From: an uncultured Planctomycetota bacterium
GTDB taxonomy: Bacteria; Planctomycetota; Planctomycetia; Gemmatales; Gemmataceae
Assembly: GCA_963784995.1 (NCBI GenBank)
Contig: CAWATZ010000006.1
Coordinates: forward strand, 264,853-328,852
Length of the DNA stretch: 64,000 nt
Reading direction: 5' to 3'
Positions 15,783 to 60,106 of this stretch are shown one piece after another. The notes beneath the pieces were generated by a model. The model searched no databases and was not told the DNA's origin. It was given only the letters and a program-made list of their open reading frames with translations. Each line of letters begins with the position of its first letter. Position 1 is the first letter of the stretch. The position numbers and the translations under genes are program-made.

Positions 15783-15790
15783 TTCCTTTG

Positions 15791-16348
<558 letters not shown>

Positions 16349-24062: not shown

Positions 24063-24080
24063 GGGGCCTCCCGCATCATG

Positions 24081-25349: not shown

Positions 25350-25506
25350 GGAAATTCGAGCCTCCTGAAACGAGGGATTCTGGCAATCCTGGACCCAAAG
25401 CTGACGTAACCCTTCCTTTTTACCGATTTCGGCCAGAGAAACAAGACAGACCGGCAAAATTCAGTTGACGGGGCGCTGCCGGCCCGCCTAGACAAGCCCG
25501 GAGCAT

Positions 25507-25568
25507 CGTGGCCGCAGGCGGCTCGCCTGCGTGCCGGACGGCCAGCAGGCGAGCCGCCTGCGGCCACG
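25507..25568. promoter_or_regulatory. Perfect 24-bp-arm hairpin in the divergent promoter / 5'-leader region upstream of the nagB-like gene
   Basis: CGTGGCCGCAGGCGGCTCGCCTGC ... GCAGGCGAGCCGCCTGCGGCCACG, followed by AAGGAG and GTG at 25591. Confidence 0.4.
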
Positions 25569-25590
25569 ACAACGAACGAAGGAGACGCAC

Positions 25591-26541
25591 GTGGACCTGA
25601 TCAGCACCCTTTCCGGCTCGATGATGGAAGGTTTCCTGCCCCGGGGCTGGGACCTGAAGCGAATGGACCAGCTGGCCGAGCAAGGCCCGGAGCAGGTCAC
25701 GAAACGGCAAGGCTGGTGGCACCCCCAGTTCGAGCCGGTGCCCTGTGCCACCGTCGAGGACTTCGACACCTTCATGGGTCACGAGATCGCCCGGGAGATT
25801 CAGCTGGCCCGCCTGTCCGGCCGGACCATTGTCTTCATCCTCCCCGTCGGTCCGATGGGCATGTACCGCTGGACCGTCTTCTTCCTCAAGGAGTGGGGCG
25901 TCTCCTGCGATCACGTCCACGGCTTCAACATGGACGAATGGTCGGACGCCCAGGGCAACACCCTGCCCGGCAACGCCACCGGCTCCTTTCAGCACGCGAT
26001 GGAGCAGGCGTTCTACGGCCCACTCGGCGGGCTGACCGTCCCGGCGAAGCAGCGCCATTTCGCGGTCAAGACGGAACTGCCGGCCTACGCCCAGAAGATC
26101 GGCGAGCTGAAAAAGCAGGGAGCGAAGCTGGTGACGGTGTTCGGCATTGGCCGGGTGTGTCACATTGCCTTCTGGGAGCCGCACTTCGCCTCCGAGTTTG
26201 CCAATGAGGCGGACTGGAAGGCCCAGACACACCGGCTGGGGGCCCGGCTGCACCCGCTGACCATCGAGCAGAACGCCCTGACCAGCTTCCGCAGCCGGAC
26301 CACCCTGGTCCCGGCCTGGGCCAACACCATCGGGCCGGGCCTGTTCCTGGCCGCCGACCGGATCATCGGCGGGGCCGACGGCATCCTGGGCCGGGGCATG
26401 CAGTGGCAAGGGCTGTCGCTGCGCATGACCTTGCAGACAGAGCCGACCCCGTGGATTCCCAGCAGTTTCATGCCCACCCTGGCGGGCCGGCTGTTCTTCC
26501 TGCGCGAACTGGCGGAGCCGTTGCTGGCCGAGTGCCATTAA
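25591..26541 (+). CDS. Glucosamine-6-phosphate deaminase / 6-phosphogluconolactonase family (NagB-like) protein
   Basis: ...[15 protein letters not shown]... resembles the NagB GIGxNGHIAFNEP motif. GTG start 7 nt after AAGGAG. Confidence 0.6.
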
Positions 26542-26891
26542 CTGTTGCACTCAACCGGCCCGTTTGATTATGATGCCGCGAAATCGGTTCCTGGAAGGGC
26601 GCCGACAACTGATTACCCGCTGGCCGTTGAAAGGATTCCAATGACCAGGCCGAGGTCTGGCCTGGGAATGGGCGCTCCCCGTTCCCCGGGCTTTGTGCTT
26701 GTCCCCCAACGACCGCAAGAAGCGCCGCTCCGTCTGGGTCTTGCCTCCATTTCGGCAGGGTGTGAGTTCGTCCCCACCTGCTCCGCTGCGCCTTCTGCTT
26801 TCCGGGTCCATCCCCAATCCGGCCGCTCTCTCCGGGCTTCCTTCGGGACCGTCCGGTGTCGGCCGACGTGGGGGATTGACCGCCGTCAAGG

Positions 26892-29332
26892 TTGTTTGTT
26901 GCCGGAAATGCGCAAGATCCGAAATGGAGAAACGGTGATGGGCCCCACACTCTGCCACGACAAGCCGCGAACGCTGACCAGTGCCTGCGCCGCTGGCGGA
27001 AGAACGCCACGCCAGCGGTGTCTCCAGGGCCCGTTCCCCAATCCCGGGCCGTGCTGACCCGGTCCGTATTCGTCGGCCTGTACCTGGCCGTGCTGGCCTG
27101 GTTTGGTCTGGTGGACGTCTACCGCACCAGCTTCTCCGAGGCCAGCCCGCTCTATTACGGCTACTTCCTGGCCCGCATCCTGTACGTGACCTACCTGGGC
27201 TGGTGTCAGTTCTTCCTGGGCAAACAGCTGCTCTCGTTCTGGCAGCGGCGGCAGGCCGGCCTGAAACTGACCGTGCTGGACGAGTACCTGCTCTGTTTCT
27301 ACAGCGGGGGCGCCCTCCTGGCCGGGGTGACCTTTGTTCTGGGGTTCCTCAACCTGTACTGGTACTGGCTCTTTGTCTGCGGCAGTGTCGGGCTGGTGGT
27401 GCTGTCCTCGGCCGAGTTCGTCCGCACAGGCCGGGTCTGGTGGCAGACGGCCCGGACCGCTCTGCTGGATCGGCGGAGCTGGATCCGGCTGGGGGCCACC
27501 TGGCTGGTCTTTGGCTGCATCCTGATCCTGATGGGGGCCCTGGTCGCTTTCAAGGGACTGTACCCGGGAGGGGGCGGCGATTACTACACGCACTACTTCC
27601 CCTACTTCCGTCACGTGCTGCTTTCTCATGGGTTGTGGCCCAACGACGTCTGGTATCATTTTTTCGTCTCCAAGGGGGCCACGATCACCATCACCAGCAT
27701 GCTGCTGACCGACCCCCTCGCTCCCGAGATGGTCACCTACCTCTACTTCCTGGTCGGCACCATGGCCGTCTGGTCGCTGCTGCGCCGCTGGGCCAACAAC
27801 CGCATCATTCCCGGTCTGGGCATGGCGGCTTGCCTGGGGGCCTTGCTCTGGACGCCGAACCGGATGTTTGGTGAATGGGGTCTGTTCCAGAAACATCACG
27901 AGTTCACGGCCAGCTTGCTGCTGTCGCTGGTGTGGCTGGTGGTGGTCTGCCCGGATGCCCGGGGCCCGCGCGGAAGGCGTGGGCGTGCTTCCTGGCCCTG
28001 TTCGTGCTGCACTGTGTGCTGCTGGCGCCGACCGTGTTTCCCCTGGTCTTTGCCCTGCTCGGGCTGGCCGCGCTGCTGGCCGTCCGCAAGCGGATCTGGG
28101 GCCTCTTCGCGGCCTCGGCGGCCGGGCTGGCCTGCGCCACGGCGGTCTGCGCCGGGCTGCTGACGCTCAATTACTGCTGCACCGGGCTGGCCGAGGTCAC
28201 GCCCATGCGCCTGTTCTGGAAATACGCCGACCAGGAACGCTTCAGCAAGTGGGTGAGCCCCTACTTGATGGTGCTGCTCCTGGAAGGTTCCTCGCCCAAC
28301 ATGGGAGACATTCAGCTTGTCGAGCACGAGACGCTGTCGCGGTGGGACTATCTGCGGATGCTGACCCGGATGCACGTGATTCACTCCGTGTTCCCGGACG
28401 CCGCCGAGGAGGTCCCCTGGTGTCTCTTGCTGGTGCTGGGCCTGGTCGCCTTGCAGTTCTGGTCCGGAAAAACAGTCGCCCTCGATCTGGATCGGCCGGG
28501 CGTTCCCATCGTCGGCCTGTTTGCCGCGGCCATCCTCCTCAGTCAGCTGGTGACCCAGCCGGTCTCGGTCTTCCGGTACTTCTCCTTCATGGTCTTCCTG
28601 GTTGTGCTGCTGGGCCTTGGAGTGTGGCTCGTGTTCTTCCATCTCCTCCCCAGCCGGAAACTGGTCTGGCTCACCTCGTACGTGATGCCGGCCCTGCTGA
28701 CCTGCCTGGTCGCCTACCAGAGCATTGTGGCGGTGCCCAACAGGGACCGGCGCGACATGCTGCGCCTGGTCGCGGGGCAGGAGAGCCTGGAGGAGGCCTA
28801 CCGGAAACACGATGTCACCAGCGCTGCTCCCGTCGCGATCCGGGAGGTCGTGGGACGGCAGGCGCGCGTCTACTCGTTCAACGTCAACAATTACTGCATG
28901 ACGCCGGACTGCGAACTGGAGTCGTTTGTGTCGTTCGCTCTGCATCAGGACTGGCACACGGTCCTGTTTGAGCCGGCCGAGCAGGCCCGAGCCGCTCTGC
29001 AGAAGCAGGGACTCAACTATTTCCTGATCGATCTGAACAAGGACGTGATCGACGTTTTGCAGTATTCGCCTTTGTTCCAGCCCGAGAACGTCGGCAAGTA
29101 CCTGGAGGTCCGCTGGCACAGGGGCAGCACCTACCTGCTGACCTGGCCCGGACCTGACACCCAGCCTCTTTCCGAAGAGTTCCTGACGATTTGGGCGCAC
29201 GTGGAGTTCTGGAACCCTTGTGATCTTGGCCCCCTCTATGAGGTGGTTCGCACGATCTACGAGCAGAACAAGGGCAAACCGTTCCCGATTGTCCGTGATC
29301 CCTCCTTGCCGCACCCGATTGGCTGGCAGTGA
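26892..29332 (+). CDS. Large polytopic membrane protein (paralog 1 of 2, ~800 aa; many N-terminal TM helices, GGGGDYYTHYFPYF motif, soluble C-terminal domain); frameshift near 27965, start uncertain
   Basis: Collinear with 31371..33770 across two ORF-track frames (26892..28163 and 27875..29332). Possible GT-C / YfhO-like fold (inference). Confidence 0.5.
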
Positions 29333-29409
29333 GAGGCTGTCCCGGAGGGGGAGGGCCGCACGGCCGGAATGGGTGAATCATCCCTGGCCGCACTCTGCCC
29401 CGCTCTTCC

Positions 29410-31297
29410 ATGCGAGGTGAGCCGATGGTGACAGTGTTACTGGAACGTGAAGGGAAAAGCGGAGCCGGGCAGCAGCAGCCCCCAGGTCCGCTGGGCCAGT
29501 TGCTGCGGCGGTGGCGTCTGCGGACGCTGCTCCAGAGCGGCTTCCGCGCCTTGCTGCCGTTCCTGGACCACTTGACGGCGCTGCTGCTGGCTCTGGTGCA
29601 TCTGGGGATCTGCCTGTGGTATGCTCCGTACGGCTTCAACGACTTCGGTGCCGATGGGGGGCAGTTCAAGACCGCCCTGGACATCGCCGAGGGCGGTGTC
29701 ATCTTCCGCGACACCTGGAGCCAGTACGGTGTGTTCACTCATCACCTGCATGCCCTGGCCCTGCTGCTTCTGGGCAAGACCTTGCTCAGCATCAAATACT
29801 GCACCTGTCTGACCTATCTGCTCGTCAGTTATGCCCAGTACTTCGTGCTGCGCCGGTTTCTGCCCCGAGGGCTGGCGGTGCTGACGGCGCTGGCCTGGCT
29901 GGGAGTGGCGCCGCACTACGAACACGGCATCATCCCCTGGCCGCACGTGGATGCCATGCTCTTCCAGTTGCTGAGTCTGCTGTGCCTGTTCCGCTTTGTG
30001 GACCGCAACCAGGGCCGCTACCTGGTGCTGGCTGGCGTTCTGACCGGACTGAGCTGGGCTGCCAAGCAGTCGGTGGGTGCCTTTCACTTTGTGGCCCTGC
30101 TCGGTTTTGTGTCGCTGGCCTACCTGCTGCCCGCCCGACCGGGCGACCTGCTGGGCCTGGCGTACTGGCGTAAGCTGCCGGGGACGTTCTTGACCAGGGT
30201 GGTGCCTCTGGTGCTGGGTTTCGCGGTCGTGCTGGGACTGATTCTGCTGGGGCTCAAATGCGCGGGGGCCTTGAGGCACTGGCACAAGCAGACCATTTTC
30301 TTCCCAAGGGTCTATTACCTCGACTACTATCTGAGGAACATGCCTTCGAGTGGGCCGATCATCCAATGGCTTGGCGACCCGGAAGACCATGGCGTGGTGA
30401 AGCAGGTGCTGGTGCTGCTGCTGACGTGGTATCGGGAGTCGGTGAACGCGACGCTGCCGGCGGCCTGCGGCCGGCAGTGGATCGTGCTGTGGCTGGCGGC
30501 CATCGTGGTCGGCTGGCGTGGTCTGGGTCGGGCCGACAACGACAGCCGGCTGGGCGTGCTGATGGGACTGGTGGCGGCCACGTCCTGGCTGGGGACGGTC
30601 CCCTCGATGCTCCCCATGCACCAGTGGTGGACCCTCACTCCCGTCTTCGGCATGCTCAGTTACTTGCTCTGGACTTTCCTCAAGGACTCCGCCGGGGTCG
30701 TCCGCTGGGCTGGCACCGTCACGGTGCTGGCCTTTCTGTTCGCCTATCCGATTTGTTCCAACCTGAGTTCCACAGCGCATGCCGAGCGGACGCGGACCAT
30801 CACCCAGATCCCGGCCCTGAAAGGGATGAAGACGACTCCGGCGACGGCGGAGACCTTGGAGACGCTTTACCAGGCCATCACCCTCTATCGCCAGCGGTAT
30901 CCCTCCTGCAAGCTGACCACCGTGGACGATCAACCGCAAACACTCTTGTTCCTGACCTTTGTCGAGAACAACCGCAATTTCCACCCGATCTACTGGTCCT
31001 GCCCGATCCTGACCTGGGAGAAGGTGTACCCCGAGTACTATCTACCGAACCATCACGTATCTCTGCCAGCAGCAACCACTGGTCGTGGCCTACCGTCGGC
31101 CCCTGTGGGCGAGGCAAGTCCCCGAAATGGGCGACGTCGGCTACCGGTGCGTCTTCGAGGTCCAGGAGGAGCCGGGCGTCTCCGGGATGTGCCTGTACGC
31201 CCCGGCGTCCGCGACGGTCCCGGAGGAATGGGCGCGGGGGCCTCACGCTCCCTGTTTGAACGTGACTCGGTTGGAGCGAGATGCGGCGCCGAGGTGA
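29410..31297 (+). CDS. GT-C family (GT39 / ArnT-PMT-like) membrane glycosyltransferase; apparent frameshift near 31040 (C-terminus continues in the 31085..31297 frame)
   Basis: ...WYAPYGFNDFGADGGQFKTALDIAEGGVIFRDTWSQYGVFTHHLHALALLLLG... is typical of the ArnT/PMT N-terminal loop. Tail of the 29410..31404 ORF is R/G/P junk, whereas the +1 frame reads protein-like. Confidence 0.45.
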
Positions 31298-31370
31298 CTG
31301 GTGTCCGGCCCGGTCGTTCCGGACCTCGGGTTCCCTTCCCGAGAACCGAGCAAGCGCAAGAGGTGAGCCA

Positions 31371-33770
31371 ATGGTGGCATTGTTTCTGGGACATCAGGGG
31401 ATGACGCCGGCCGGCCAGCGGCTGGGGAGCTGGCGGCAGTCCCTGACCCGGTGGATCGGAACGAAGGAACCCCGGACCGTAACAACCACGCTGCTGCAAT
31501 GCGGCTTTGTCCTGCTCTACCTGGGGGTCCTCCTCTGGTTCGCCAGGGTCGATGTCTATCACATGCACTTCTTCGGCACCGGCTACCGCAACCTTGGCTA
31601 TGCCCTGGCGCGCGTCCTGTTCGTGGCCTACGTGGGTTGGTGTCAGTTCTACCTCGGCAAACAGCTGCTGTCCTTCTGGCAGCGCCGCCAGGCCGGCCTG
31701 AAACTGAGCGTCCTGGACGAATACCTGGTCTGTTTCTACGTGGGCGGGGCCATCCTCGCGGGGATCACCTTTGTTCTGGGCATGCTCCACCTGTACTACT
31801 ACCGGCCGCTTGCCGTTGCCAGTGTGATCCTGGTGGCCCTGTCCTCGGCGGAGTTCGTCCGCACCGGCGGCGTCTGGTGGCGGACGGCCCGCAAGGTCCT
31901 GCTGGACCGTCGCGACCTGGTGCGGCTGGGCTCTACCTGGCTGGCGCTGGGCTGTGTCCTGTTCCTGGTCGTGGTCCTGGCGGAATTCAAGGGCATGTAT
32001 CCGGGGGGCGGCGGCGATTACTACACGCACTACTTCCCTTATTTTCGGCACGTCTTGCAGTCGCGCGGCCTCTGGCCCAACGACGTCTGGTATCATTTTT
32101 TCGTCTCCAAGGGCGCCACGATCACCATCACCAGCATGCTGCTGACCGACCCCCTCGCTCCCGAGATGGTCACCTACCTCTACTTCCTGGTCGGGACGCT
32201 GTGCGTCTGGTCGCTGCTGCGCCGCTGTGCCAACAACCGCATCGTTCCCTGTCTGGGCATGGCCGTCTGTCTGGGTGCCTTTCTCTGGACGCCCAACAAG
32301 CAGCTCGGCGACTGGGGCATGTTCCAGAAGCATCACGAGTTCACGGCCAGTTTGCTGCTCTCGGTGGTGTGGATGACGGTCGTCATGCCCAACGCGGGCG
32401 GCGTGGCCCGGAAGGCGTGGATGAGCTTCCTGGCCCTGGCCGTGATGCATTGCATCCTGCTGTCGCCCACCGTGTTTCCCCTGGTGTTCGCCCTGCTCGG
32501 ACTGGTCCTGCTGGCGGCCTTGCTCAAGCGGGCCTGGGGAGTGTTCGCCAGCACGGCTGTGGCCATGACCTGTGCCGGTCTCGTGTTCGGCGGGCTGCTG
32601 ACGCTCAACTACCTCTGGACCGGCCTGGCCGAGGTCACGCCCATGCGTTTGTTCTGGAAGCACGCCAACCAGGAGCGCTTCAGCCGCTGGGTCAGCCCCT
32701 ATCTGATGGTCCTGCTGCTGGAGGGCTCGTCGCCGGACATGGGTGACGTTCGGCTGGTCGAGCACAAGGAGGGATCGCGTGCTGAATACCTCCGCACGCT
32801 GGTCCGGACGCAGACGGTGCGGTGCTTCTTTCCCGACATCGATGAGGACGTGCCGGCCAGCGTGCTGCTGGTGCTGCTGGGAGTCACGGTCCCGCTGGCC
32901 TTCGGGAAGAAAGTCCGTTTTGAGCTGTGGCGGCTTGCCGTTCCCGTGGCCGGGCTGTTCGTCCTGGCCCTGGTCCTCAGCCAGCTGGTGACCCAGCCGG
33001 TCTCCGTTTATCGGTACTTTTCCTTCATGGTTTTCCTGATCGTGCTGCTGGCCCTGGGATTGTGGGTGCTGCTCTTCCGGCTCCATCCCAACCGCAAGCT
33101 GGTTCGGCTCACTTCCTGCGTGGTGCCGGCCCTGCTGACCTGCCTGGTCACCTATCAGTCCGTCCTGGCCATCCCGGAACAGGAACGGGAGGACCTGTGG
33201 CGCTTCGCCACCGGCAAGGAAAGTTTGGGGGAAGCGTTCCTCAAGCGCGGCATCACCAGCTGGGTGCCGCTCACCATCCGCGACCTGACCGGGCCTGGGA
33301 AGCGCGTTTACTCGTTCAACATCAACAATTACTGCATGGCGCCGGACTGCGAACTGGAGTCGTTTGTCTCGTTCGCCCTGCATCAGGACTGGCATGAGGT
33401 CCTCTTTGAAGAGCCCGAGCAGGCCCGAGCCGCTCTGCAGAAGCAGGGTCTCAACTATTTCCTGATCGATCTGAACCGGGACATGGTCGATGTTTTGCAG
33501 TATTCGCCTTTGTTCCGGCCCGAGAACGTCGGCAAGTACCTGGAAGTCCGCTGGCACAGGGGCAGCACCTACCTGCTGACCTGGCCAGGCCCAGATACCG
33601 AGCCTCTTCCCGAGGAGTTCCTGACGATCTGGTCGCTCATGGAGTTCTGGAACCCCTGTGATCTTGGCCCCCTCTACGAGGTGGTTCGCACGATCTACAA
33701 GCAGAACAAGGGCAAACCGTTCCCGATTGTCCGTGATCCCTCCTTGCCTCACCCTCCGGGCTGGCAGTGA
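31371..33770 (+). CDS. Large polytopic membrane protein (paralog 2 of 2, intact, 800 aa)
   Basis: ATG 31371 after gcaagaggtgagcca. Uninterrupted frame. 60-70% identical to the 26892..29332 product. Confidence 0.75.
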   Translation: MVALFLGHQGMTPAGQRLGSWRQSLTRWIGTKEPRTVTTTLLQCGFVLLYLGVLLWFARVDVYHMHFFGTGYRNLGYALARVLFVAYVGWCQFYLGKQLLSFWQRRQAGLKLSVLDEYLVCFYVGGAILAGITFVLGMLHLYYYRPLAVASVILVALSSAEFVRTGGVWWRTARKVLLDRRDLVRLGSTWLALGCVLFLVVVLAEFKGMYPGGGGDYYTHYFPYFRHVLQSRGLWPNDVWYHFFVSKGATITITSMLLTDPLAPEMVTYLYFLVGTLCVWSLLRRCANNRIVPCLGMAVCLGAFLWTPNKQLGDWGMFQKHHEFTASLLLSVVWMTVVMPNAGGVARKAWMSFLALAVMHCILLSPTVFPLVFALLGLVLLAALLKRAWGVFASTAVAMTCAGLVFGGLLTLNYLWTGLAEVTPMRLFWKHANQERFSRWVSPYLMVLLLEGSSPDMGDVRLVEHKEGSRAEYLRTLVRTQTVRCFFPDIDEDVPASVLLVLLGVTVPLAFGKKVRFELWRLAVPVAGLFVLALVLSQLVTQPVSVYRYFSFMVFLIVLLALGLWVLLFRLHPNRKLVRLTSCVVPALLTCLVTYQSVLAIPEQEREDLWRFATGKESLGEAFLKRGITSWVPLTIRDLTGPGKRVYSFNINNYCMAPDCELESFVSFALHQDWHEVLFEEPEQARAALQKQGLNYFLIDLNRDMVDVLQYSPLFRPENVGKYLEVRWHRGSTYLLTWPGPDTEPLPEEFLTIWSLMEFWNPCDLGPLYEVVRTIYKQNKGKPFPIVRDPSLPHPPGWQ

Positions 33771-33849
33771 GCCGTTCGCGCCGTTACTTGCTGCTGGGCT
33801 TCCCTTTTGGCTTCGAGTCGCGCATGATGCTGTTAAGGGAGGTCGCATC

Positions 33850-36174
33850 ATGCCTGTGTCCGCCAGCCCAACGATCGATCAGCTGCGTCAGGTCGTTGCC
33901 CAGCACTGGGGCTACGGCGAGCTGCGCCCCTTGCAGCAAGAAGCAATGCAGGCCGTGCTGGATCGTCAGGACTCGCTGGTCGTGCTCCCGACCGGCGGCG
34001 GCAAGTCGCTCTGCTACCAGGCCCCGGCCGTGCTGCTGGGCGGCACCACCGTGGTCATCTCGCCGCTGATCGCCCTGATGAAGGACCAGGTGGACAGCCT
34101 GCTCGCTTGCGGCATCCCCGCCGTGGCCCTCAACAGCACCCTTTCCGCCGTCGAGCGCAGCGCCTATGAGGCTGACCTGCTCCAGGGAGCGGTCCGGTTG
34201 CTGTTTGTCTCGCCCGAACGGCTGATCCAGTCCGACCTGTACCGCATCCTGCAACAAATCCCGGTCCACGCCTTCGCCATCGACGAGGCCCACTGCATCA
34301 GCCACTGGGGCCACGATTTCCGCAAGGAATATCGGATGCTGGATCGGCTGCGCGACTACTTCCCCAACGTCTCGGTCCACGCCTACACGGCCACCGCCAC
34401 CGAGCAGGTCCGGCGCGACATCTGCACCAACCTCGGCCTGCGCGACCCGGTCGTTCTGGTCGGCGACTTCGATCGCGCCAACCTGACCTATCGCGTCCTG
34501 CCCCGCCACGATCGCCTGAAGCAGGTCCTGGAGGTGCTGGACCGCCACTCCGGCGAGGCCGGCATCATTTACTGTCTGCGGCAGAAGGACGTCGATGAGC
34601 TGGCCGAGGCCCTGAAAACGCGGGGCTTCCGCGCTCTGCCGTACCACGCGGGCAAGGAGAAGGACGAACGGCACCGGGTCCAGGAAGAGTTCATCGCCGA
34701 GCGCTGCGACATCGTGGTGGCCACGGTCGCCTTTGGCATGGGCATCGATCGCTCCAACGTGCGTTTTGTGCTGCACGTGGCCATGCCCAAGTCGCAGGAG
34801 CATTACCAGCAGGAGGCAGGCCGGGCCGGCCGGGACGGGCTGCCCGCCGAGTGCGTCCTGCTCTATTCCGGCGCCGACGTCTTCACCATGAAGTCGATCC
34901 TCGAGAAGTCCGCCGAGGAGAACCAGGTCGAACCGGACGCGCTGGCCGCCAGCTTGCGGCACCTCGATGAGATCGATCGCTATTGCCGCGGTGCCTGCTG
35001 CCGGCACAAGGCCCTGGTCGAGCACTTCGGCCAGCAGTACGCCAGGCCCTCCTGTGATGCCTGCGACATCTGCCTGGGCGACACCGTCGAGGTGGCCGGC
35101 AGCACCGTCATCGCCCAGAAGATCCTGTCGTGCGTGGCCCGGGTCAAGGAGTGCTTCGGCATCAACCACGTCGTCGGCATCCTCCGCGGCGAGACCTCCG
35201 AGGGCATCCTCAAACGCGGCCACGACAAGCTCACCACCTATCGTTTGCTCGAGCAGCACAGCAAGCCCGACCTGCGCGACTGGATTTACCAGCTGATCGG
35301 CCAGGGCGTGCTGATCCAGACGGCGGACGAGTATCCGAAACTGCGGCTCAACGAGGGCTCGTGGGAAGTGATGCGCGGCCAGAGACAGGTCCGGCTGATC
35401 CAGATGGTGCGCCGCAAGAAGGGCGAGAAGGTCCGGCGCTCCGTGGTCGAAGAGGTGTCGTGGGAGGGCGTGGACCGGCAGCTGTTCGAGGTGCTGAAGG
35501 GGGTGCGGCGCGTCCTGGCCGGCGAGCGGCAGGTGGCAGCCGCGTACCTGATCTTCAGCGACAACGTGCTGCGCGACCTGGCCCGGGTTCGGCCCTCGAC
35601 GCCGGCCCGGATGCGGCAAATCTCCGGCGTCGGCGACGTCAAGCTGCGCGAGTTCGGCCAGCGCTTCCTCGACGCCATCAAGGAGTATTGCCAGAAACAG
35701 GGCCTGACAATGGACGTGTCCGGGCCGGCGGCCCGGACGCTGTTCCCCGCACCCGCTCTGCCTCCACTGACACCGCCCGTTGCAAAGGCTCCCGTTGCGC
35801 CGGCACCACCTCCCGCCCCGGCGAAAGTCGCTCCTCCGTCACCGCTGGCACCGCCTCCCGCGCCGGCGAAACCGCCGACGCTGGCTCAGGAGTTCGAGCT
35901 GTTCCGGCAGGAGGTGTCGATTCCGGACGCGATGCGGCACCTGGGCAAGGTGCGCGGCCTGGTGGTCGAGTCGCTCTGCGAGTACATCCGGCGCGAAAAG
36001 CCGGCGTCCATCGCGGCCTGGATCCCGGACCTGACCTACCGGCGGATCGTCAACGCGGTCCGCACCGTGGGAGTGGAGAAGCCGACACCGATCTTGCTGG
36101 CGCTGGGCGGGTCGGTGAGCGCCGAGGAGGTCCGGCTGGTGCTGGCGCACCTGGGGGCGAAGAAAGGGCTGTGA
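33850..36174 (+). CDS. recQ: ATP-dependent DNA helicase RecQ (with proline-rich linker and extra C-terminal domain)
   Basis: DEAH box (FAIDEAHCISHWGHDFR), RecQ zinc-binding CxxC motifs, HRDC-like region. RBS AAGGGAGG before ATG 33850. Confidence 0.9.
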   Translation: MPVSASPTIDQLRQVVAQHWGYGELRPLQQEAMQAVLDRQDSLVVLPTGGGKSLCYQAPAVLLGGTTVVISPLIALMKDQVDSLLACGIPAVALNSTLSAVERSAYEADLLQGAVRLLFVSPERLIQSDLYRILQQIPVHAFAIDEAHCISHWGHDFRKEYRMLDRLRDYFPNVSVHAYTATATEQVRRDICTNLGLRDPVVLVGDFDRANLTYRVLPRHDRLKQVLEVLDRHSGEAGIIYCLRQKDVDELAEALKTRGFRALPYHAGKEKDERHRVQEEFIAERCDIVVATVAFGMGIDRSNVRFVLHVAMPKSQEHYQQEAGRAGRDGLPAECVLLYSGADVFTMKSILEKSAEENQVEPDALAASLRHLDEIDRYCRGACCRHKALVEHFGQQYARPSCDACDICLGDTVEVAGSTVIAQKILSCVARVKECFGINHVVGILRGETSEGILKRGHDKLTTYRLLEQHSKPDLRDWIYQLIGQGVLIQTADEYPKLRLNEGSWEVMRGQRQVRLIQMVRRKKGEKVRRSVVEEVSWEGVDRQLFEVLKGVRRVLAGERQVAAAYLIFSDNVLRDLARVRPSTPARMRQISGVGDVKLREFGQRFLDAIKEYCQKQGLTMDVSGPAARTLFPAPALPPLTPPVAKAPVAPAPPPAPAKVAPPSPLAPPPAPAKPPTLAQEFELFRQEVSIPDAMRHLGKVRGLVVESLCEYIRREKPASIAAWIPDLTYRRIVNAVRTVGVEKPTPILLALGGSVSAEEVRLVLAHLGAKKGL

Positions 36175-36238
36175 GAGTCCGTTCTTCAAGCCGCAAGCGG
36201 CTTCGGCGGTTGGAGGGAAAAGGTTGGTCCGCCCTCCT

Positions 36239-36370
36239 GTCCCGTGGGTGCGCTGCGCGACCCACGGCTGGGCTAGGCAACCCCTTCGGGGTTGGTGGAC
36301 AACGCTCGCCCTGTCTTCAACCGCGAAGCGGTTGCATAACTCAGCCGTGGGTCGCGCAGCGCACCCACGA
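36239..36370. repeat. Nested palindromic element downstream of recQ (30-bp arms GTCCCGTGGGTGCGCTGCGCGACCCACGGCTG / reverse complement, central CAACCCCTTCGGGGTTG hairpin)
   Basis: Arms at 36239-36270 and 36343-36370. Contains the GCGCTGCGCG core shared with the other long palindromes. Confidence 0.55.
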
Positions 36371-36420
36371 GGCGGGAGAGTGGACAAACGTTTTCCCTCA
36401 AACTGCCGCCTCAACAATGC

Positions 36421-41385: not shown

Positions 41386-44300
41386 ATGCCGACCGCATCC
41401 CTCCTTCGCAGCCACCGTTTTCCGCTCGCCCTGCTGCTGGTCGTCCTGACCACTGCGATTCCCGCCGCTGCCCAGGAGAAACTGCCGCCGAACGTCCGGG
41501 TGATTCGCCTGGAAGTGCAGCCGACCACGATCACTCTCACCACGCCGTTCCAGTACAGCCAGCTGCTGGTGACCGGCGTGCTGCCATCCGGTGAGCGCAT
41601 CGACCTGACGCGGCTGGCGAAGATCCAGCCGCCCGCGAAGGTGGCCAGGGTCACTCCCACCGGCCAGGTCCGGCCCATCGCCGACGGCAAGGGCGCCCTC
41701 AGCGTCACCTGGGAGGACAAGATTGCCATCGTGGACGTCAAGGTGGAGGGACTGAAGCAGAAGCCGGAGGTCAGCTTTGTCCGGGACGTGATGCCGGCCC
41801 TGTCGCGCATGGGCTGCAATGCCGGCACCTGCCACGGGGCGGCCGAGGGCAAGAACGGCTTCAAGCTGTCGCTGCGCGGCTACGATCCGCTGGGCGATCA
41901 CCGCAGCCTGACCGACGACCTGGAAGGCCGGCGCTTCAACCGCGTCGCTCCGGAAAAGAGCCTGATGCTGCTCAAGACCTCCGGTGCCATTCCCCACGTC
42001 GGCGGCGTCGTCACCCAGCCGGGCGAGCCTTACTACGAGCTGCTCCAGCTCTGGATCGCCCAGGGCGTCAAGCTGGACGTGAACAGCACCCGCGTCAGCA
42101 AGATCGACAATCCAGCCGCGCTCGGTCAGCATCCCGCTGCCGGGGATGAAGCAGCAGATGGCCGTGGTCGCCACCTTCGCCAACGGCAGCGTCCGCGACG
42201 TGACCTCCGAGGCCTTCATCGACAGCAGCAACACCGAGGTGGCCACGGTGGACCGCAGCGGCACCGTGACGGCCGTCCGCCGCGGCGAGGCCACCATCAT
42301 GGTCCGCTACGAGGGGAACTACGCGGCCAGCACCCTCTTTGTGATGGGCGACCGCAGCGGCTTTGTCTGGAAGCCGGTCGAGGGCCAAGGCGTCATCGAC
42401 TCGCTGGTCTACGACAAGCTGAAACAGGTCAAGGTGCTGCCCAGCGACCTCTGCACCGACGCCGAGTTCGTCCGCCGGGTCTATCTCGACCTGACCGGTC
42501 TGCCGCCGCAGCCCGAACAGGTCCGGGCCTTCCTGCACGACACCCGCCCGAGCCGGTTCAAGCGCGACGAACTGATCGACAAGCTGATCGGCAGCCCCGA
42601 TTTCATCGAGCACTGGACCAACAAGTGGGCCGACCTGCTTCAGGTGAATCGCAAGTTCCTGGGCGACAAGGGCGCGACCGCTTTTCGCGGCTGGATTCGC
42701 AAGTCCGTCGCCGAGAACATGCCCTACGACAAGTTCGCCCGCGCCATCCTGACGGCCAGCGGCTCCAACGTGGACAATCCACCGGCCAGCTATTTCAAGG
42801 TGCTGCGCGAGCCCGACGCGGTCATGGAGAACACCACCCAGCTGTTCCTGGCGGTGCGCTTCAACTGCAACAAGTGCCACGATCATCCCTTCGAGCGCTG
42901 GACCCAGGACCAGTATTACCACCTGGCCGCCTTCTTCGCCCAGGTCGGCCGGGCCGAGGACCCGCGCTACAAGGGCCAGAAGCTCGGCGGCACCGCGGTC
43001 GAGGGGGCCAAGCCGCTGGTGGAGGTGATTTCCGACCTCAAGGGCGGCGACGTGAAGCACGCCCGCACCGGGGCCGTCTCGGCACCGGTCTTCCCCTACA
43101 AGCACAACGACCTGGCCCCCGCCACCGCGACCCGGCGCGAGCAGGTCGCCCACTGGATCACCAGCACGGAGAACGTCTACTTCGCTCGCAGTTACGTCAA
43201 CCGCCTCTGGAGCTACCTGCTGGGCGTCGGCCTGATCGAGCCGGTCGATGACATCCGGGCGGGCAACCCGCCGAGCAACCCGAAACTGCTCGACTTCCTC
43301 ACCGACGAGTTCGTCAAGAACGGCTTCAACACCCGGCACGTGATCCAGATGATCTGCAAGTCGCGCGTCTACCAGCATTCGGTGGTGGCCAACGACTGGA
43401 ACAAGGACGACGACATCAACTACGCCCGCGCCCTGCCGCGCCGGCTGTCGGCCGAGGTGCTTTTCGATTCGATCCACAGCGTCACCGGCTCGGTAAGCCG
43501 GCTTCCTGGCCTGCCGGCCGGCAGCCGGGCCGCCCAGATGCTCGACTCCACTGTCGATGCCCCCGGCGGCTTCTTCAACCTGTTCGGCAAGCCGCCGCGC
43601 GAGAGCGCCTGTGAATGCGAACGCAGCACCAGCCTGATGCTGGGGCCGGTGCTGAACCTGGTCAATGGCCCCATCCTGGCCGATGCGGTCCGCGATCCGA
43701 GCAACCGCATTGCCAGGGTGCTGGCCGCCGAGAAGAACGACACCAGGGTGGTCGAGGAACTGTACCTGGCCGCCCTGTGCCGGCCGCCGACCCCCGGCGA
43801 GCTGAAAGCCGCCCTGGAGACGCTGAAGGCGGGTGAGGCCGACTTCGATGAGATGCTGGCGGAAGGCAAACGGCGTCAGGAGGCGCTGAATGCCTACGAG
43901 AAGCAGCTCAACGAACGGCAGGCCAAGTGGGAGACCGCCATGAAGCAGGCACCGGTGTGGGTCCCGGTTGGGATTACCAAGGCCGTTGCCAAGGGGGCTG
44001 GCGTGACCCTGAAAACGCAGCCGGACGGCTCCGTGCTGGCCAGCGGCGCCAACCCCGCTAACGACACCTATACCGTGACGGCGACCACTCCGCTGAAGGG
44101 AATCACCGCCATTCGCCTGGAGGCGCTGCCCGACCCGAGCCTGCCCGCCAAGGGCCCAGGCCGGTCCGGCGGCGGTAACTTCGTGCTGAATTATTTCAAG
44201 GTGGACGCCAGGGAGGCAGGGGCGGCGGGAGCGGGCCGGCCGCTGGCCCTGTTCAACGCCTCGGCGACCTTTGCCCAGGACAAATTCCCGGCCGCCAACG

Positions 44301-44731: not shown

Positions 44732-44740
44732 CCCGACTCT

Positions 44741-44890
44741 TCCTCCCCTCTCCCCGCTGGGGAGAGGGGTTGGGGGTGAGGGGTGGATTGTGTCGATTTA
44801 TCGTTTCGCGCTGGGCCGAGTGAGCGCGAAACGATAAATCAAATGCAACCCCTCACCCCCAACCCCTCTCCCCAGCGGGGAGAGGGGAGG
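44741..44890. repeat. REP-like composite palindromic element copy 2 (complete 150-bp nested palindrome)
   Basis: Both halves present: CCTCCCCTCTCCCCGCTGGGGAGAGGGGTTGGGGGTGAGGGG ... GATTTATCGTTTCGCGCT...AGCGCGAAACGATAAATC ... CCCCTCACCCCCAACCCCTCTCCCCAGCGGGGAGAGGGGAGG. Confidence 0.75.
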
Positions 44891-44904
44891 AAAATGCACC
44901 ACGG

Positions 44905-47156
44905 ATGGTGTCTCCCGTGATCTGTCTCGTTGCCAACGACCTGGCCCATCTGATCCGCAACGGCGGCGTTGGCACGTACTTCTGGCTGCTGGCGCATCTC
45001 CTGGCCCGCAAGGGCCTTCCCGTCTTCCTCCTCTACGCCAACGACCCCATCGAGAACCCCTCGGCCCTTCCGGACGTCCGCCGGCGACTGGAGAAAGCGG
45101 GCATCGGCTTCGCCACCCTGGCGGACTTTCCCGTTCCGCCGCACTGGCATCTTCCCACCCACGGCAGCAACCCGCTCCTGCAGCGCAGTGAGCGGGTCCG
45201 CTTCGTGCTGGAGCATCTGCAGCAGCGTCATCGCTTTGACCTGATCGAGTTTGCCGACTGGGGCGCGTGTGGTTTTCGCTCCGTCCAGGCCCGGCGGACC
45301 GGGCTGGCGTTCGCGGACGCTGCGCATCCTGGTCCGGCTGCACGGCTCCAGCCAGTGGGGACGGGCCGGCAACCTCCAGGGACTCACCAGCAAGGAGGAC
45401 CTGCGCCTCGATTTCGCCGAGCAGCACGCCTTCGATCACGCCGACGTTCAGCGCAGCCCCACCCGCTACGTGCTTGAGCAGGCCCGCGCCAGTGGCTGGG
45501 TGGTCCGAGCCGACGCCCAGGTGGATGGCTATCCCTTTCCCGACCGGCCTGACAGGCCGGGCGACTCCTCGGGAGAAGTCCGGGAGATCGTGTTCTTCGG
45601 CCGGCTGGAAGTGCGCAAGGGACTGCTGCTGTTCCTGGAGGCGTGCCGGCACCTGACACCGCTGCCGCTCGCTTTTGTCGGCAAGGACACCGTGTTGCCG
45701 GACGGCCGACGTGCTTCGGCCGTGATCCGGCAAGCGCTGCCGGGCCGGCGCGTTTCCCTTCACACCAATCTCGACCACGCGCAGGCCCTGGCCTATCTGC
45801 GGCAGCCCGGCCGGCTGGCCGTGCTGCCCTCGCTGGCCGACAACCTCCCCTTCGCCTTGATCGAGTGCGGCACCCAGGGCATCCCGTTCCTCGCATCTCA
45901 CGTTGGCGGCATTCCCGAACTGCTGGCCGATCCGGACTTGCAGCGGCAGTTGCTTTTCCAGCCGACTGCACCGGACCTGCTGCGCTGTCTGCGCTCCTAC
46001 CTCGACACCAGCGCGAGCCAGCGCCGATGCGGGACGGAGGAACTGTACCAGCGCCTTGACCCGGGATGGAACAACGACCGGCTGGTTGAGGGATACGCGA
46101 TGGTTAGCCGCGACGCGGAGCGCAGCGCAGCGGAGCGCGGAGAGGCCCCACCGAACGGAGCCTCTCCGCGCTCCGCTGCGCTGCGCTCCGCGTCGCGGCT
46201 AACGAACGGTGTTCCCGAACGGATTGGGCGAACCCACACACTGGTGAGCGTCGTCGTCCCCCACTTCAACCTGCCTGATTACCTCCCGGAGGCGTTGGCG
46301 TCGCTGGCCTGCCAGTCTTACCCTCATCTGGAGATCCTCGTCGTCGATGACGGCTCCACCTGTCCGCGGGCCTTGCAAGTCGTGGCCGAGCAGGAACGCC
46401 TTTATCCGCACTTCCGCTTTCTGCGAACCGGCAACGCCGGTCCGGGAGCCGCCCGCAACGCCGGCCTGGCCGAGGCCCGGGGCGATTTTGTGCTGATGTT
46501 CGACGCGGACAACGTCGCCCTGCCACACTTGGTCGAAACCCTGGTGCGCGGGCTGGAGCGTCTGCCCGAGGTGGCGGCCCTGACCTGTCCGGTCCTGGGC
46601 GTCTCCGATTCTCCCAACCCGGCCGGCCGGCGACCGGTCCTGGTCAATGCCTTCGCGGGCGGCCCGGTCTTGCTCGCCTGCCTGGAGAACGTCTTCGGCG
46701 ACAGCACCGCCCTGTTCCGGGCCGATGCCCTGCGTGCCGTCGGCGGCTTTGACACGGATCGCTCCACTCCCTGGGAGGACTGGCTGACCTACCTCCGACT
46801 TGATCCAGGCCGGTTTCCAGATCGAAACGGTCCCGACCTTCCTGTTCCATTACCGCGTTCGCCGGGGTAGCTACACGGCCGGGCTGATCCAGGGACCGGC
46901 GGACCGAGATCGGCTCCTGCAAATCCTGCTGCAACGCGGCTTCTCCGGCCCGGACTTGCCGCCGGGGGTCCGCCCGGCCAGCCTCTGGGCCATCGCGGTC
47001 CAGTTCGGGCTGCTCAGCGACCGCCAGAACACACTCCGCCATCGCCTGCTGGAGCAGATCAACAAACGACTGCGGCGAATGCCCCGGTTGCACGCCGGAC
47101 TTAAACGGTTGCTCCAGCTGCTGCTCGGGCTGGTGCGCTGGTCGGTGCGCGGATAA
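44905..47156 (+). CDS. Bifunctional glycosyltransferase (N-terminal GT4 / GT1-fold, C-terminal GT2); two apparent frameshifts (~45305, ~46795) and an in-frame 99-bp palindrome in the interdomain linker
   Basis: GT4 N-domain GGVGTYFWLLAHLLARKG and C-domain EIVFFGRLEVRKG. GT2 ...VSVVVPHFNLPDYLPEALASLACQSYPHLEILVVDDGS... Confidence 0.55.
46104..46202. repeat. 99-bp perfect palindrome (43-bp arms, 13-nt loop CCCACCGAACGGA) inside the GT4-GT2 coding sequence, translated in-frame as 33 aa (...SRDAERSAAERGEAPPNGASPRSAALRSASRLT...)
   Basis: TTAGCCGCGACGCGGAGCGCAGCGCAGCGGAGCGCGGAGAGGC (46104-46146) is the exact reverse complement of 46160-46202. Length is divisible by 3. Confidence 0.7.
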
Positions 47157-60009: not shown

Positions 60010-60106
60010 TCCCCTCTCCCCAGTGGGGAGAGGGGTTGGGGGTAAGGGGTTTTGTCTTGATTTATCGTTTCGCGCTCGGTCGGCCCAGCGCGAAACGATA
60101 AATCAA
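60010..60106. repeat. REP-like composite palindromic element copy 3
   Basis: CCCCTCTCCCCAGTGGGGAGAGGGGTTGGGGGTAAGGGG ... GATTTATCGTTTCGCGCTCGGTCGGCCCAGCGCGAAACGATAAATC. Confidence 0.7.

What the first reader, a model, noticed from the sequence alone, without database searches (positions are those of the whole stretch)
46104..46202. 99-bp perfect palindrome inserted in-frame into the linker of a GT4-GT2 glycosyltransferase gene; member of a CGCTGCGCTC long-palindrome family
43-bp perfectly complementary arms plus a 13-nt loop sit inside a coding sequence and are translated as a 33-aa Ala/Arg/Ser-rich linker. The reverse strand encodes an almost mirror-image peptide. Its arms share the GAGCGCAGCG / CGCTGCGCTC core with other exceptionally long perfect hairpins at 9089-9176 (36-bp arms), 20940-21012 (32-bp arms) and 36239-36370. 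Such long perfect stems are improbable by chance and point to a mobile or copy-paste palindromic element family that can land in ORFs when the length is a multiple of 3. The loop contains CCGAACG, the same core as the cassette attC sites.
Basis: seen in the sequence. Interest (0 to 1): 0.7.

Follow-up and report, generated by a model that had tools for sequence, protein, structure and literature searches.

The report
Mobile palindromic repeat inside glycosyltransferase gene
A 101-base perfect DNA hairpin sitting in frame inside a sugar-transferase gene is a copy of a widespread planctomycete repeat that elsewhere flanks a single-strand-DNA transposase gene, so it is a new example of a known phenomenon (selfish palindromes that survive inside genes), not a new kind of element.

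Summary
The palindrome is real. It has 44-bp perfect arms (46103-46146 / 46160-46203) and a 13-nt loop, and no shuffle folds as well. It lies in the poorly conserved linker between the GT4 and GT2 halves of a fused glycosyltransferase gene and is read in frame as about 33 extra residues. Two syntenic orthologs (72% and 71% identical) lack it.

It is not defined by the CGCTGCGCTC core. Its ends, G[G/T]TTAGCCGCGACGCGGAGCG..., match over 120 metagenomic stretches and two Planctomycetota MAGs, as hairpin doublets of 29-110 bp and as single arms. In 5 of 5 loci examined, including Humisphaera borealis, these arms directly flank a RayT-like HUH/Y1 transposase gene. This is the REPtron/TIRtron arrangement described by Di Nocera 2013.

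Other family copies sit in frame inside a kinase, an SMC and a dehydrogenase gene, always read as SRDAERSA or ALRSASRL. TAG and TAA at the element ends close the other frames.

The other long palindromes in the window have a different architecture. The attC idea is unsupported.

Caveats: the window holds one copy and no transposase gene, and the host gene shows two +1 frameshifts (assembly error or pseudogene).

Verdict: a new member of a known kind, of moderate interest.

The parts
46103..46146 (+). Left arm of the palindrome (44 nt). It begins with the family-defining end G-TTAGCCGCGACGCGGAGCG and continues with 5-nt units GCGCA-GCGCA-GCGGA-GCGCG and GAGAGGC.
   Evidence: Perfect complement of 46160-46203. 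The 14-mer TTAGCCGCGACGCG occurs in the window only here and in the right arm. The same end occurs in L041-L122 and L163-L166.
46147..46159 (+). Loop, CCCACCGAACGGA. It is copy-specific, since loops differ in every family member.
   Evidence: CCGAACGGA recurs once, 64 nt downstream at 46215, and nowhere else in the window. This is unexplained.
46160..46203 (+). Right arm of the palindrome (44 nt), ending ...CGCGTCGCGGCTAA-C.
44905..47156 (+). Host gene, a fused GT4-GT2 glycosyltransferase. It is read in three frames in this assembly: 44905-45321 (frame 1), 45323-46834 (frame 2, which holds the palindrome) and 46800-47138/47156 (frame 3).
   Evidence: Pfam Glyco_transf_4, Glycos_transf_1 and Glycos_transf_2. 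tblastn of the intact 719-aa ortholog P0002 gives three collinear pieces with +1 shifts at about 45322 and 46800-46834. Alignment A1.
45575..46033 (+). GT4 C-terminal (Glycos_transf_1) domain, upstream of the insert.
   Evidence: Pfam residues 109-261 of ORF 45251-46870. AlphaFold pLDDT is 80-96.
46247..46732 (+). GT2 (Glycos_transf_2) domain, downstream of the insert and in the same frame.
   Evidence: Pfam residues 333-494, E = 6.7e-27. pLDDT is 82-95.
46099..46240 (+). Interdomain linker with no DNA similarity to the orthologs. It is 142 bp here against 52 bp (L001) and 45 bp (L002). The difference of 90-97 bp is accounted for by the element.
   Evidence: blastn break points, DNA alignment A2, protein alignment A1 columns 401-500. 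pLDDT is below 50 for residues 298-326.

Best explanation
The palindrome is a hairpin 'doublet' of a repeat family of Planctomycetota. It consists of two inverted arms, G[G/T]TTAGCCGCGACGCGGAGCG..., around a copy-specific loop.

In relatives the same arms lie directly on both sides of a RayT-like HUH/Y1 (IS200-superfamily) transposase gene. That is the REPtron/TIRtron arrangement. The most likely history is as follows. A non-autonomous copy was mobilised in trans by such an enzyme, which acts on single-stranded DNA hairpins and leaves no target duplication. It landed in the variable linker between the GT4 and GT2 halves of the glycosyltransferase gene, after this lineage split from its 71-72%-identical orthologs.

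The copy is 3n long and lies in the only phase not closed by the element's terminal TAG and TAA. The gene therefore reads through and gains about 33 residues in a low-confidence interdomain linker, leaving both catalytic domains untouched.

Shown: the palindrome, its family, its absence from orthologs, the transposase association in other genomes, the frame logic and the linker position. Inferred: mobilisation by the transposase, recent origin (perfect 44-bp stem) and tolerance by the protein.
For: 1. Insertion. The syntenic orthologous loci (WD40 - PSCyt2/PSD1 - GT) L001 and L002 lack about 90-97 bp exactly here.
2. Family. The 22-mer of the arm end hits two Planctomycetota MAGs. I found 54 doublets and 41 single arms with the same ends and unrelated loops. 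Flank position 1 covaries (G..C 23, T..A 16; 40 of 46 complementary against 21 expected) and there is no direct repeat.
3. Transposase. In L092 an ORF matching NCBIfam REP_Tyr_transpos (E = 3.7e-11) and Pfam Y1_Tnp is preceded by a doublet, and its TAG stop lies in a single arm. Its homologs number 4180 at E < 1e-5, are named RayT by JGI, and occur in Tepidisphaeraceae, Phycisphaeraceae and Humisphaera borealis. Four loci were fetched by protein identity alone. All four have the arms within about 110 nt of both gene ends, at 0 mismatches in L163 and L166, 1 in L164 and 2 in L165. Only one further copy lies in the remaining roughly 70 kb. HUH (LPDHVHL) and Y..NP are invariant.
4. Other in-frame copies lie in real genes, read in the same frames: L055 kinase-MG2 protein, L113 SMC, L122, and L069 quinone oxidoreductase (an 11-residue insertion relative to 1yb5).
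5. Only one frame per strand is open through the element, and the gene uses it.
6. The insert falls in a segment with pLDDT below 50, between confident domains.
7. Precedent: REP dimers inside genes encoding 20-30 aa, and tyrosine-transposase genes flanked by long inverted repeats that form dispersed single and dimer families (PMC3733652).
Against: - The window holds a single copy and no Y1 transposase ORF. The orthologous loci hold none. A resident transposase in this genome is therefore unproven.
- The window's genome was not in the genome collection searched.
- The RayT-like proteins score below the curated cut-offs of both HMMs (43 against 80 bits; 21 against 23 bits).
- No experiment shows that any RAYT moves its repeats in vivo.
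- The arms lack the GT[AG]G foot of canonical REPs, and a single arm is not a hairpin.
- The host gene carries two +1 frameshifts in this assembly. If they are real it is a pseudogene, and 'tolerated in frame' would then be a 1-in-9 accident without meaning.
- An exhaustive protein search found no second protein with this full insert.
Confidence: 0.8

Rival explanations
1. The host gene is a pseudogene, and the element is neutral junk that happens to be 3n long. Nothing is 'tolerated' because no full-length enzyme is made.
For: There are two +1 frameshifts in the gene, at about 45322 and 46800-46834. Neither is in a homopolymer run. NCBI's own product (P0001, 533 aa) is the truncated ORF. About 1 in 9 random genic insertions of this family would stay open.
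Against: The neighbouring PSCyt2/PSD1 gene has a +1 shift too (42101-42108), making three in 5 kb. The related long contig L002 also has split genes. This looks like an indel-prone assembly. Apart from the shifts the gene is 72-77% identical to the ortholog over its whole length, with no stops and confident domain folds.
Confidence: 0.25
2. It is a classical MITE: a deletion derivative of a DDE-type insertion sequence, recognised through its terminal inverted repeats and inserted with a target-site duplication.
For: It has long terminal inverted repeats, a small size, a variable centre, and both dispersed and nested copies.
Against: There is no direct repeat at the ends. The flanks are complementary, not identical (G..C or T..A). 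The only gene found associated with the arms, in 5 of 5 loci, is a Y1/HUH transposase, not a DDE enzyme.
Confidence: 0.06
3. It arose locally. An inverted duplication (template switch or fold-back synthesis) of a pre-existing linker created the palindrome in place, without any mobile element.
For: The 44-bp arms are perfect. Indels are symmetric in both arms across the family, and arms within a doublet are more alike than arms between doublets (0.65 against 0.41). The loop 9-mer CCGAACGGA recurs 64 nt downstream.
Against: The outer 25 nt of the arm are identical to those of unrelated loci in other genomes, which a local duplication cannot produce. Without the 99 bp the linker has the length seen in the orthologs. 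Fold-back copying could still be the way a single inserted arm becomes a doublet, which would be a step within the main explanation.
Confidence: 0.05
4. It is a selected functional hairpin. Acting as RNA inside the message, it would serve as a pause, cleavage or decay signal that uncouples or tunes the two enzyme halves.
For: The RNA stem is extremely stable (-125 kcal/mol) and lies exactly between the two domains. REPs are known to affect mRNA stability (PMC3733652).
Against: It is absent from both orthologs. It has no T-tail and so is not terminator-like. No Rfam family matches beyond generic hairpin models far below threshold. The sequence is that of a dispersed repeat found mainly between genes.
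Confidence: 0.07
5. It is an assembly artefact of a long-read assembly.
For: The assembly seems indel-prone. One metagenomic contig with this family (L047) looks like a fold-back contig.
Against: Errors would break a perfect 44-bp stem, not make one. The same arms occur in more than 120 independent assemblies, including a finished genome. The reading frame is kept across the element.
Confidence: 0.02

Closest known systems
TIRtrons / TIRYT-associated inverted-repeat families and REPtrons (Di Nocera et al. 2013, PMC3733652; Quentin et al. 2018, PMC6006769)
   Same: A single Y1/HUH transposase gene is bracketed by inverted copies of a repeat, sometimes overlapping the 3' end of the gene. The repeat is also dispersed through genomes as singles and dimers. 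Such systems are already reported in the PVC group, including Planctomycetes.
   Different: This arm sequence was not found in any paper searched. The arms carry no GT[AG]G or CGTC tag and none of the GGGGWSAS motif described for several TIRs. The transposases fall below the curated RAYT cut-off.
REPINs (REP doublets forming hairpins) mobilised by RAYTs (Bertels & Rainey 2011, PMC3116915)
   Same: Two inverted units around a short spacer form a long hairpin. Doublets coexist with single units. The arms of a doublet evolve together. A cognate tyrosine transposase is flanked by the repeats.
   Different: In a REPIN each REP unit is itself a small palindrome with a GTAG foot. Here a single arm does not fold, so the doublet is the only hairpin. 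REPINs are extragenic, whereas this copy is inside a gene.
Rickettsia palindromic elements, RPE (Ogata et al. 2000, 2002, as summarised in PMC10969869)
   Same: Palindromic repeats of about 100-150 bp are inserted in frame in unrelated protein-coding genes. They add a family-specific peptide at positions compatible with the fold.
   Different: The host phylum and the sequence are different. No transposase is known for RPEs, whereas this family has an associated Y1 transposase. Most copies of this family are intergenic, so genic copies are the exception rather than the rule.
Intragenic REPs (Di Nocera et al. 2013, PMC3733652)
   Same: REP singles and dimers occur inside known genes, and dimers encode 20-30 amino acids. 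The window copy is a dimer encoding 33.
   Different: Those cases are GTAG- or CGTC-tagged REPs, mainly in Proteobacteria and Opitutus. This is a longer, untagged inverted-repeat type.

Membership tests
REPtron / TIRtron repeat (repeat family cognate to a Y1 tyrosine transposase) | A Y1/HUH transposase gene is directly flanked by inverted copies of the repeat. | tested here: met
   Met in other genomes: L092, L163 (H. borealis CP063458.1), L164, L165 and L166, i.e. 5 of 5 loci, with arms within about 110 nt of both gene ends. It could not be tested in the window's own genome, and the window holds no such ORF.
REPtron / TIRtron repeat (repeat family cognate to a Y1 tyrosine transposase) | The repeat is dispersed in many copies as singles and inverted dimers. 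| tested here: met
   More than 120 metagenomic stretches plus 2 MAGs, giving 54 doublets and 41 single arms. Copy number in the window's genome is unknown (1 copy in 64 kb).
REPtron / TIRtron repeat (repeat family cognate to a Y1 tyrosine transposase) | The associated protein has the HUH motif, the catalytic Tyr and a RAYT-type signature. | tested here: inconclusive
   LPDHVHL and Y..NP are invariant in 10 homologs. However, NCBIfam REP_Tyr_transpos scores 43 bits against a cut-off of 80, and Pfam Y1_Tnp scores 21 against 23.
Canonical REP / REPIN | Each unit is a 20-40-nt imperfect palindrome with a 5' GT[AG]G foot. | tested here: not met
   A single arm folds no better than shuffles (z = +0.25 and +0.39). 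The end is G[G/T]TTAG, not GTAG. The neighbouring palindrome 20941-21013 does meet this feature (AGTAG + hairpin, z = -3.9).
Canonical REP / REPIN | Extragenic location. | tested here: not met
   This copy lies inside a CDS. Of the 54 family doublets, only this one sits in an ORF with Pfam support, and one more (L047) is doubtful.
Rickettsia palindromic elements (RPE) | A palindromic repeat is inserted in frame in unrelated genes and adds a conserved peptide. | tested here: met
   Window GT gene; L055, L113, L069 and L122 carry SRDAERSA or ALRSASRL segments inside Pfam-supported proteins. This shows a shared behaviour, not common descent.
Rickettsia palindromic elements (RPE) | Sequence similarity to RPE-1 to RPE-10, in Rickettsiales hosts. 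| not tested
   No RPE sequences were available to compare. The host is a planctomycete (PSCyt2/PSD1 genes; MAG titles).
DDE-type MITE | Target-site duplication (direct repeat) at both ends. | tested here: not met
   The flanks are complementary, not direct. The window flanks are ...GATGG | CGAACG....
Integron attC site | An imperfect hairpin with R''/L''-L'/R' cores and extrahelical bases, at cassette boundaries. | tested here: not met
   The stem is a perfect 44 bp with no bulges. It lies inside a gene. The proposed core CCGAACG occurs at chance frequency (19 against 14.2). No search for an integrase was made.

The most novel reading that the evidence does not exclude
The TTAGCCGCGACGCG family may be an undescribed planctomycete system with two features beyond known REP and TIR families.
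1. Doublets would be made or kept perfect by hairpin-templated copying of one arm onto the other. The evidence is symmetric 5-22-nt indels in both arms, covarying flank bases, and perfect stems of up to 48 bp.
2. Through its single open frame the family would repeatedly donate SRDAERSA...ALRSASRL linker modules to proteins. That would be a second, transposase-linked counterpart of the protein-coding palindromes so far considered a peculiarity of Rickettsia.
Probability: 0.25. Interest if true: 0.6.

Novelty: new member of a known kind. Interest (0 to 1): 0.4.

Why it matters
The finding gives a clean before-and-after case of a hairpin repeat entering a gene without breaking it: an empty site in two orthologs and a filled site here. 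It also ties that repeat to a candidate single-strand-DNA transposase in a phylum where such systems are barely described.

The rule that decides which genic insertions survive can be read from the sequence. TAG and TAA at the element ends leave one open frame, and the length must be 3n. This makes the family a convenient test bed for how selfish palindromes become protein linkers.

For annotation, it explains recurrent SRDAERSA, ALRSASRL and LAATRSGA 'peptides' in planctomycete gene calls.

Tried and rejected
- Peptide search for other proteins carrying the insert. The exhaustive HMMER search of 1.84 billion representatives found only the window's own protein. Genic copies therefore had to be found from the DNA loci.
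- Identifying the organism. P0001 is not on record for contig look-up, the clusters carry no names, and the window's genome is absent from the species-representative collection. Only the phylum can be inferred.
- Rfam. There is nothing at gathering threshold except a group II intron elsewhere. Below threshold there are only eukaryotic miRNA-precursor models far under their cut-offs, which are generic hairpin matches.
- Terminator reading rejected, because there is no T-tail.
- attC reading rejected.
- Idea that doublet loops are captured flank DNA or remnants of the transposase-gene flanks. Loop and flank share 8-mers in 9 of 45 doublets, mostly through arm-like sequence. blastn of the loops against the RayT flanks matched only inner-arm motifs, apart from L054 and L104, which belong to the same subfamily as the doublet next to the L092 gene. 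This is not conclusive.
- L047 (a 75-bp doublet in an ORF) is discounted. The contig contains the same segment twice in inverted orientation, which may be a fold-back assembly, and the ORF has no Pfam support.
- An IS200 TnpA probe sequence written from memory was used only to fish for candidates. The hit was then checked with Pfam and NCBIfam.
Full report
THE OBSERVATION

The window holds a perfect inverted repeat with 44-bp arms, 46103-46146 and 46160-46203, around a 13-nt loop (46147-46159). Allowing mismatches, complementarity continues to 46098-46208.

As RNA the segment folds at -125.1 kcal/mol, against -59.3 +/- 3.6 for 200 dinucleotide-preserving shuffles (z = -18.6). As DNA the figures are -73 against -30 kcal/mol (z = -17.0). 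No shuffle reaches either value. The structure is not a chance feature.

THE HOST GENE AND THE EMPTY SITE

The palindrome lies in ORF 45251-46870(+). Upstream, that ORF matches Pfam Glycos_transf_1 (ORF residues 109-261). Downstream, in the same frame, it matches Glycos_transf_2 (residues 333-494). The element is translated as residues about 285-318, VSRDAERSAAERGEAPPNGASPRSAALRSASRL.

The closest homologs are P0002 (72% identical, an intact 719-aa GT4-GT2 protein) and P0003 (71%). Both come from loci with the same gene order, WD40 - PSCyt2/PSD1 - GT, so they are orthologs.

DNA similarity to both loci stops at 46098 and resumes at 46241. The unaligned stretch is 142 bp in the window, 52 bp in L001 and 45 bp in L002. 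In the protein alignment the linker varies in length and sequence in all 13 homologs, and the window has about 30 residues more than its two nearest relatives. The 99-101 bp are therefore an insertion into a variable interdomain linker.

An AlphaFold model built on that alignment has confident GT4-C and GT2 domains (pLDDT 80-96). It has a low-confidence segment (below 50) at residues 298-326, inside the insert.

WHAT FAMILY IT BELONGS TO

The 22-mer at the arm end (TTAGCCGCGACGCGGAGCGCAG) occurs in two Planctomycetota MAGs in the species-representative genome collection. The window's own genome is not in that collection. In both MAGs the 22-mer is part of a shorter, imperfect hairpin with the same ends.

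Because the probe was an exact 18-mer, this sample is biased towards well-conserved arms.

Across the window and the loci L041-L122 I found 54 doublets and 41 single arms. A doublet is a left arm followed within 200 nt by the inverted arm. Doublet lengths run from 29 to 110 bp.

The consensus is G[G/T]TTAGCCGCGACGCGGAGCGGAGCGCG - variable centre - CGCGCTCCGCTCCGCGTCGCGGCTAA[C/A]C. Centres differ in every copy. Several copies carry the same 5-22-nt insertion in both arms, for example L097 (with a 48-bp perfect stem), L092 and L054.

The window copy differs from the consensus by two extra 5-nt units in each arm (GCGGA-GCGCA-GCGCA-GCGGA-GCGCG). The closest variants are L046 and L048.

- The first flanking base covaries (G..C in 23 copies, T..A in 16; 40 of 46 complementary against 21 expected).
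- There is no direct repeat at the ends.
- Arms within a doublet are more alike than arms of different doublets (0.65 against 0.41).
- The window copy has the second-longest perfect stem of the 45 distinct doublets compared.
- Length mod 3 is 15/20/19 for remainders 0/1/2, so the family as a whole has no preference for multiples of three.

THE TRANSPOSASE LINK

One metagenomic locus, L092, carries an ORF next to a doublet. The ORF matches NCBIfam REP_Tyr_transpos (E = 3.7e-11, 43 bits, below the cut-off of 80) and Pfam Y1_Tnp (21 bits, cut-off 23). Its TAG stop codon is the TAG of a single arm (GGTTAGCCGCGACGC).

This protein has 4180 homologs at E < 1e-5. Many are named 'REP element-mobilizing transposase RayT' by JGI. 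The named sources are Tepidisphaeraceae, Phycisphaeraceae and Humisphaera borealis.

I fetched four homolog loci by protein identity alone. All four have the arms within about 110 nt of both ends of the gene.
- L163 (H. borealis CP063458.1): R 9803, L 9887 - gene 10001-10591 - R 10685, L 10804, all with 0 mismatches.
- L164: L 9916 - gene - R 10635.
- L165: doublet 261-318 - gene - R 936.
- L166: doublet 9909-9988 - gene - doublet 10588-10665, which again supplies the stop codon.

Only one further copy lies in the remaining roughly 70 kb of these loci. The proteins have an invariant LPDHVHL (the HUH motif) and an invariant Y..NP motif.

This is the arrangement described as a REPtron. Where the flanking repeats are long inverted repeats instead of GTAG-tagged REPs, Di Nocera et al. 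2013 call it a TIRtron (PMC3733652; see also PMC6006769). Those authors also report dispersed single and dimer copies of such repeats, and flanking repeats that overlap the 3' end of the gene.

COPIES INSIDE GENES, AND WHY THE FRAME IS ALWAYS THE SAME

Through the window element only one of the three frames on each strand is free of stops. TAG in TTAGCC and TAA in GGCTAA close the other two. The glycosyltransferase gene uses the open frame.

Among the metagenomic loci, arms lie inside long ORFs with Pfam support on both sides, always in frames that read SRDAERSA or ALRSASRL:
- L055: a Ser/Thr kinase-MG2 protein, with the arm in the linker after the kinase domain.
- L113: an SMC protein, with the arm in the coiled coil.
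- L069: a quinone oxidoreductase, with an 11-residue insertion SRDAERPRSGS relative to the solved structure 1yb5.
- L122: an RNase HII-like protein.

They are single arms, or doublets whose second arm is no longer recognisable.

Of the 54 doublets, only the window copy sits in an ORF with domain support. L047 is doubtful. An exhaustive HMMER search of 1.84 billion representative proteins found no second protein with this full 43-residue segment. Genic copies are thus a small minority. That fits either selection against disruptive insertions or a preference for intergenic targets.

RELATION TO THE OTHER PALINDROMES IN THE WINDOW

GAGCGCAGCG is over-represented in the window (9 occurrences against 0.68 expected), but it plays different roles in the different palindromes.

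At 9088-9177, at 20941-21013 and, as the 9-mer GCGCAGCGC, at 36204-36408, each arm is itself a small hairpin. An 8-bp stem closes on this motif:
- CCCCGGGT-G-GAGCGCAGCGC-A-ACCCGGGG
- GGTGGGCC-GAGCGCAGCGA-GGCCCACC
- CCGTGGGT-CGCGCAGCGC-ACCCACGG

These single arms fold better than shuffles (z = -3.0, -3.9, -2.4). The 20941 element also begins with GTAG, as canonical REP dimers do.

The same mini-hairpin, with other stems, is found in 38 viral contigs and in several planctomycete loci. In L059 and L081 it lies nested inside an arm of the TTAGCC family.

A single arm of the 46104 element does not fold on its own (z = +0.25 to +0.39).

All the other long palindromes lie between ORFs. The attC comparison rests on a 7-mer present at chance frequency.

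HOW IT MOST LIKELY WORKS

HUH/Y1 transposases of the IS200 superfamily act on single-stranded DNA, recognise hairpins and leave no target duplication. This is established knowledge, summarised in PMC6006769. The E. coli RAYT binds and cleaves its REP in vitro (cited in PMC3733652).

By analogy, the doublet was mobilised in trans by the RayT-like enzyme and inserted into the linker. This step is inferred. The window shows one copy and no transposase gene, and in vivo mobilisation by any RAYT has not been demonstrated.

The perfect 44-bp stem suggests a recent event, or copying of one arm from the other. The symmetric indels across the family favour some templated process. Fold-back completion of a single inserted arm cannot be excluded.

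Possible consequences are a very stable stem in the message and an extra, probably flexible, linker. Neither has been tested. The element has no T-tail and does not look like an intrinsic terminator.

CAVEAT ON THE HOST GENE

Relative to the intact ortholog, the gene has two +1 shifts:
- about 45322, in GACGCT[G]CGCATC
- about 46800-46834, in CGACTT[G]ATCCAG

The neighbouring PSCyt2/PSD1 gene has one as well, at 42101-42108. Three shifts in 5 kb point to an indel-prone assembly, as do the split genes in the related long contig L002. None of the shifts lies in a homopolymer run, however, so real pseudogenes cannot be excluded.

The frame is kept across the palindrome itself: the GT4-C half and the GT2 domain are in the same frame.

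COMPARISON WITH WHAT IS KNOWN, AND NOVELTY

The element behaves like a dimer of a transposase-associated inverted-repeat family (REPtron/TIRtron; REPIN-like). In this copy it also behaves like the in-frame palindromic elements of Rickettsia and the intragenic REP dimers that encode 20-30 residues (PMC3733652, PMC10969869).

It fails two defining features of canonical REPs: the self-folding unit with a GT[AG]G foot, and extragenic location. It also fails the target-duplication test for DDE-type MITEs. No paper in the searchable library contains the arm sequence, and a search for planctomycete palindromic repeats found nothing relevant.

I rate it a new member of a known kind. It is moderately interesting as a clean filled-versus-empty example and as an entry point to an undescribed planctomycete repeat-transposase pair.

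Noticed in passing
window 24130-24174, 44795-44840, 60057-60106; also L098 2051-2113 and L103 1724-1740: A second hairpin family, (TT)GATTTATCGTTTCGCGCT - 9-10 nt - AGCGCGAAACGATAAATC(AA), has three copies in 64 kb, all between ORFs. One copy sits in the centre of another palindrome. A related TTTATCGTTTCGCGC...GAAACGTAAA hairpin lies nested inside a TTAGCC-family doublet in L098.
   Followed up: partly
window 44740-44892 and 60011-60035: A 45-nt-arm, 100% complementary palindrome lies between the PSD1 and GT genes. Each arm contains CCCCTCTCCCC-GCT-GGGGAGAGGGG, and the GATTTATCG hairpin sits in its centre. The same CCCCTCTCCCC/GGGGAGAGGGG mini-hairpin recurs next to the 60057 copy. GGGGAGAG fits the GGGGWSAS motif reported for inverted repeats flanking some tyrosine-transposase genes (PMC3733652). 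This is a lead only.
   Followed up: no
window 9088-9177, 20941-21013, 36204-36408; L003-L040; L050, L059, L063, L074, L081: Small hairpins have a constant tip GAGCGCAGCG(A) and freely varying 5-8-bp stems, usually as inverted pairs. The window copy at 20941 is GTAG-tagged. The pattern GAGCGCAGCG-N25-55-CGCTGCGCTC hits 38 viral contigs with stems such as ATTGC/GCAAT, ATCCT/AGGAT and GGTGGG/CCCACC. This looks like a very widespread REP class with a conserved loop.
   Followed up: partly
window 42101-42108, about 45322, 46800-46834: Three +1 frameshifts occur within 5 kb in two adjacent genes, relative to intact orthologs. None is in a homopolymer run. The explanation is either an indel-prone assembly or two pseudogenes.
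   Followed up: partly
window 46151-46159 and 46215-46223 (also CGAACGG at 46203-46209): The loop 9-mer CCGAACGGA occurs only twice in the window, the second time 64 nt downstream in the native linker. CGAACGG also abuts the right end of the element. This may be chance (rough estimate of a few percent) or a trace of how the loop arose.
   Followed up: partly
window 16264-16338 (- strand): A group II intron catalytic domain matches Rfam RF00029 at 70.1 bits against a gathering score of 40. Long ORFs lie on the same strand just upstream in intron orientation (15041-16348).
   Followed up: no
window about 24000-34000: The + strand shows a sustained, strongly negative AT skew (-0.19 to -0.22), unlike the rest of the window, across a run of + strand ORFs.
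   Followed up: no
L092 486-1257, L166 10588-10601, L163-L165: The stop codon of the RayT-like gene is supplied by the TAG of the flanking repeat arm (...TTT GGT TAG CCGCGACG) in at least two unrelated loci. The gene end and the repeat end are therefore fused.
   Followed up: partly
L047 1707-1781 and 2495-2569: The same 75-bp doublet, with its flanks, appears twice in inverted orientation about 790 bp apart. This is either a large inverted repeat or a fold-back assembly artefact. I did not use this contig as evidence.
   Followed up: no
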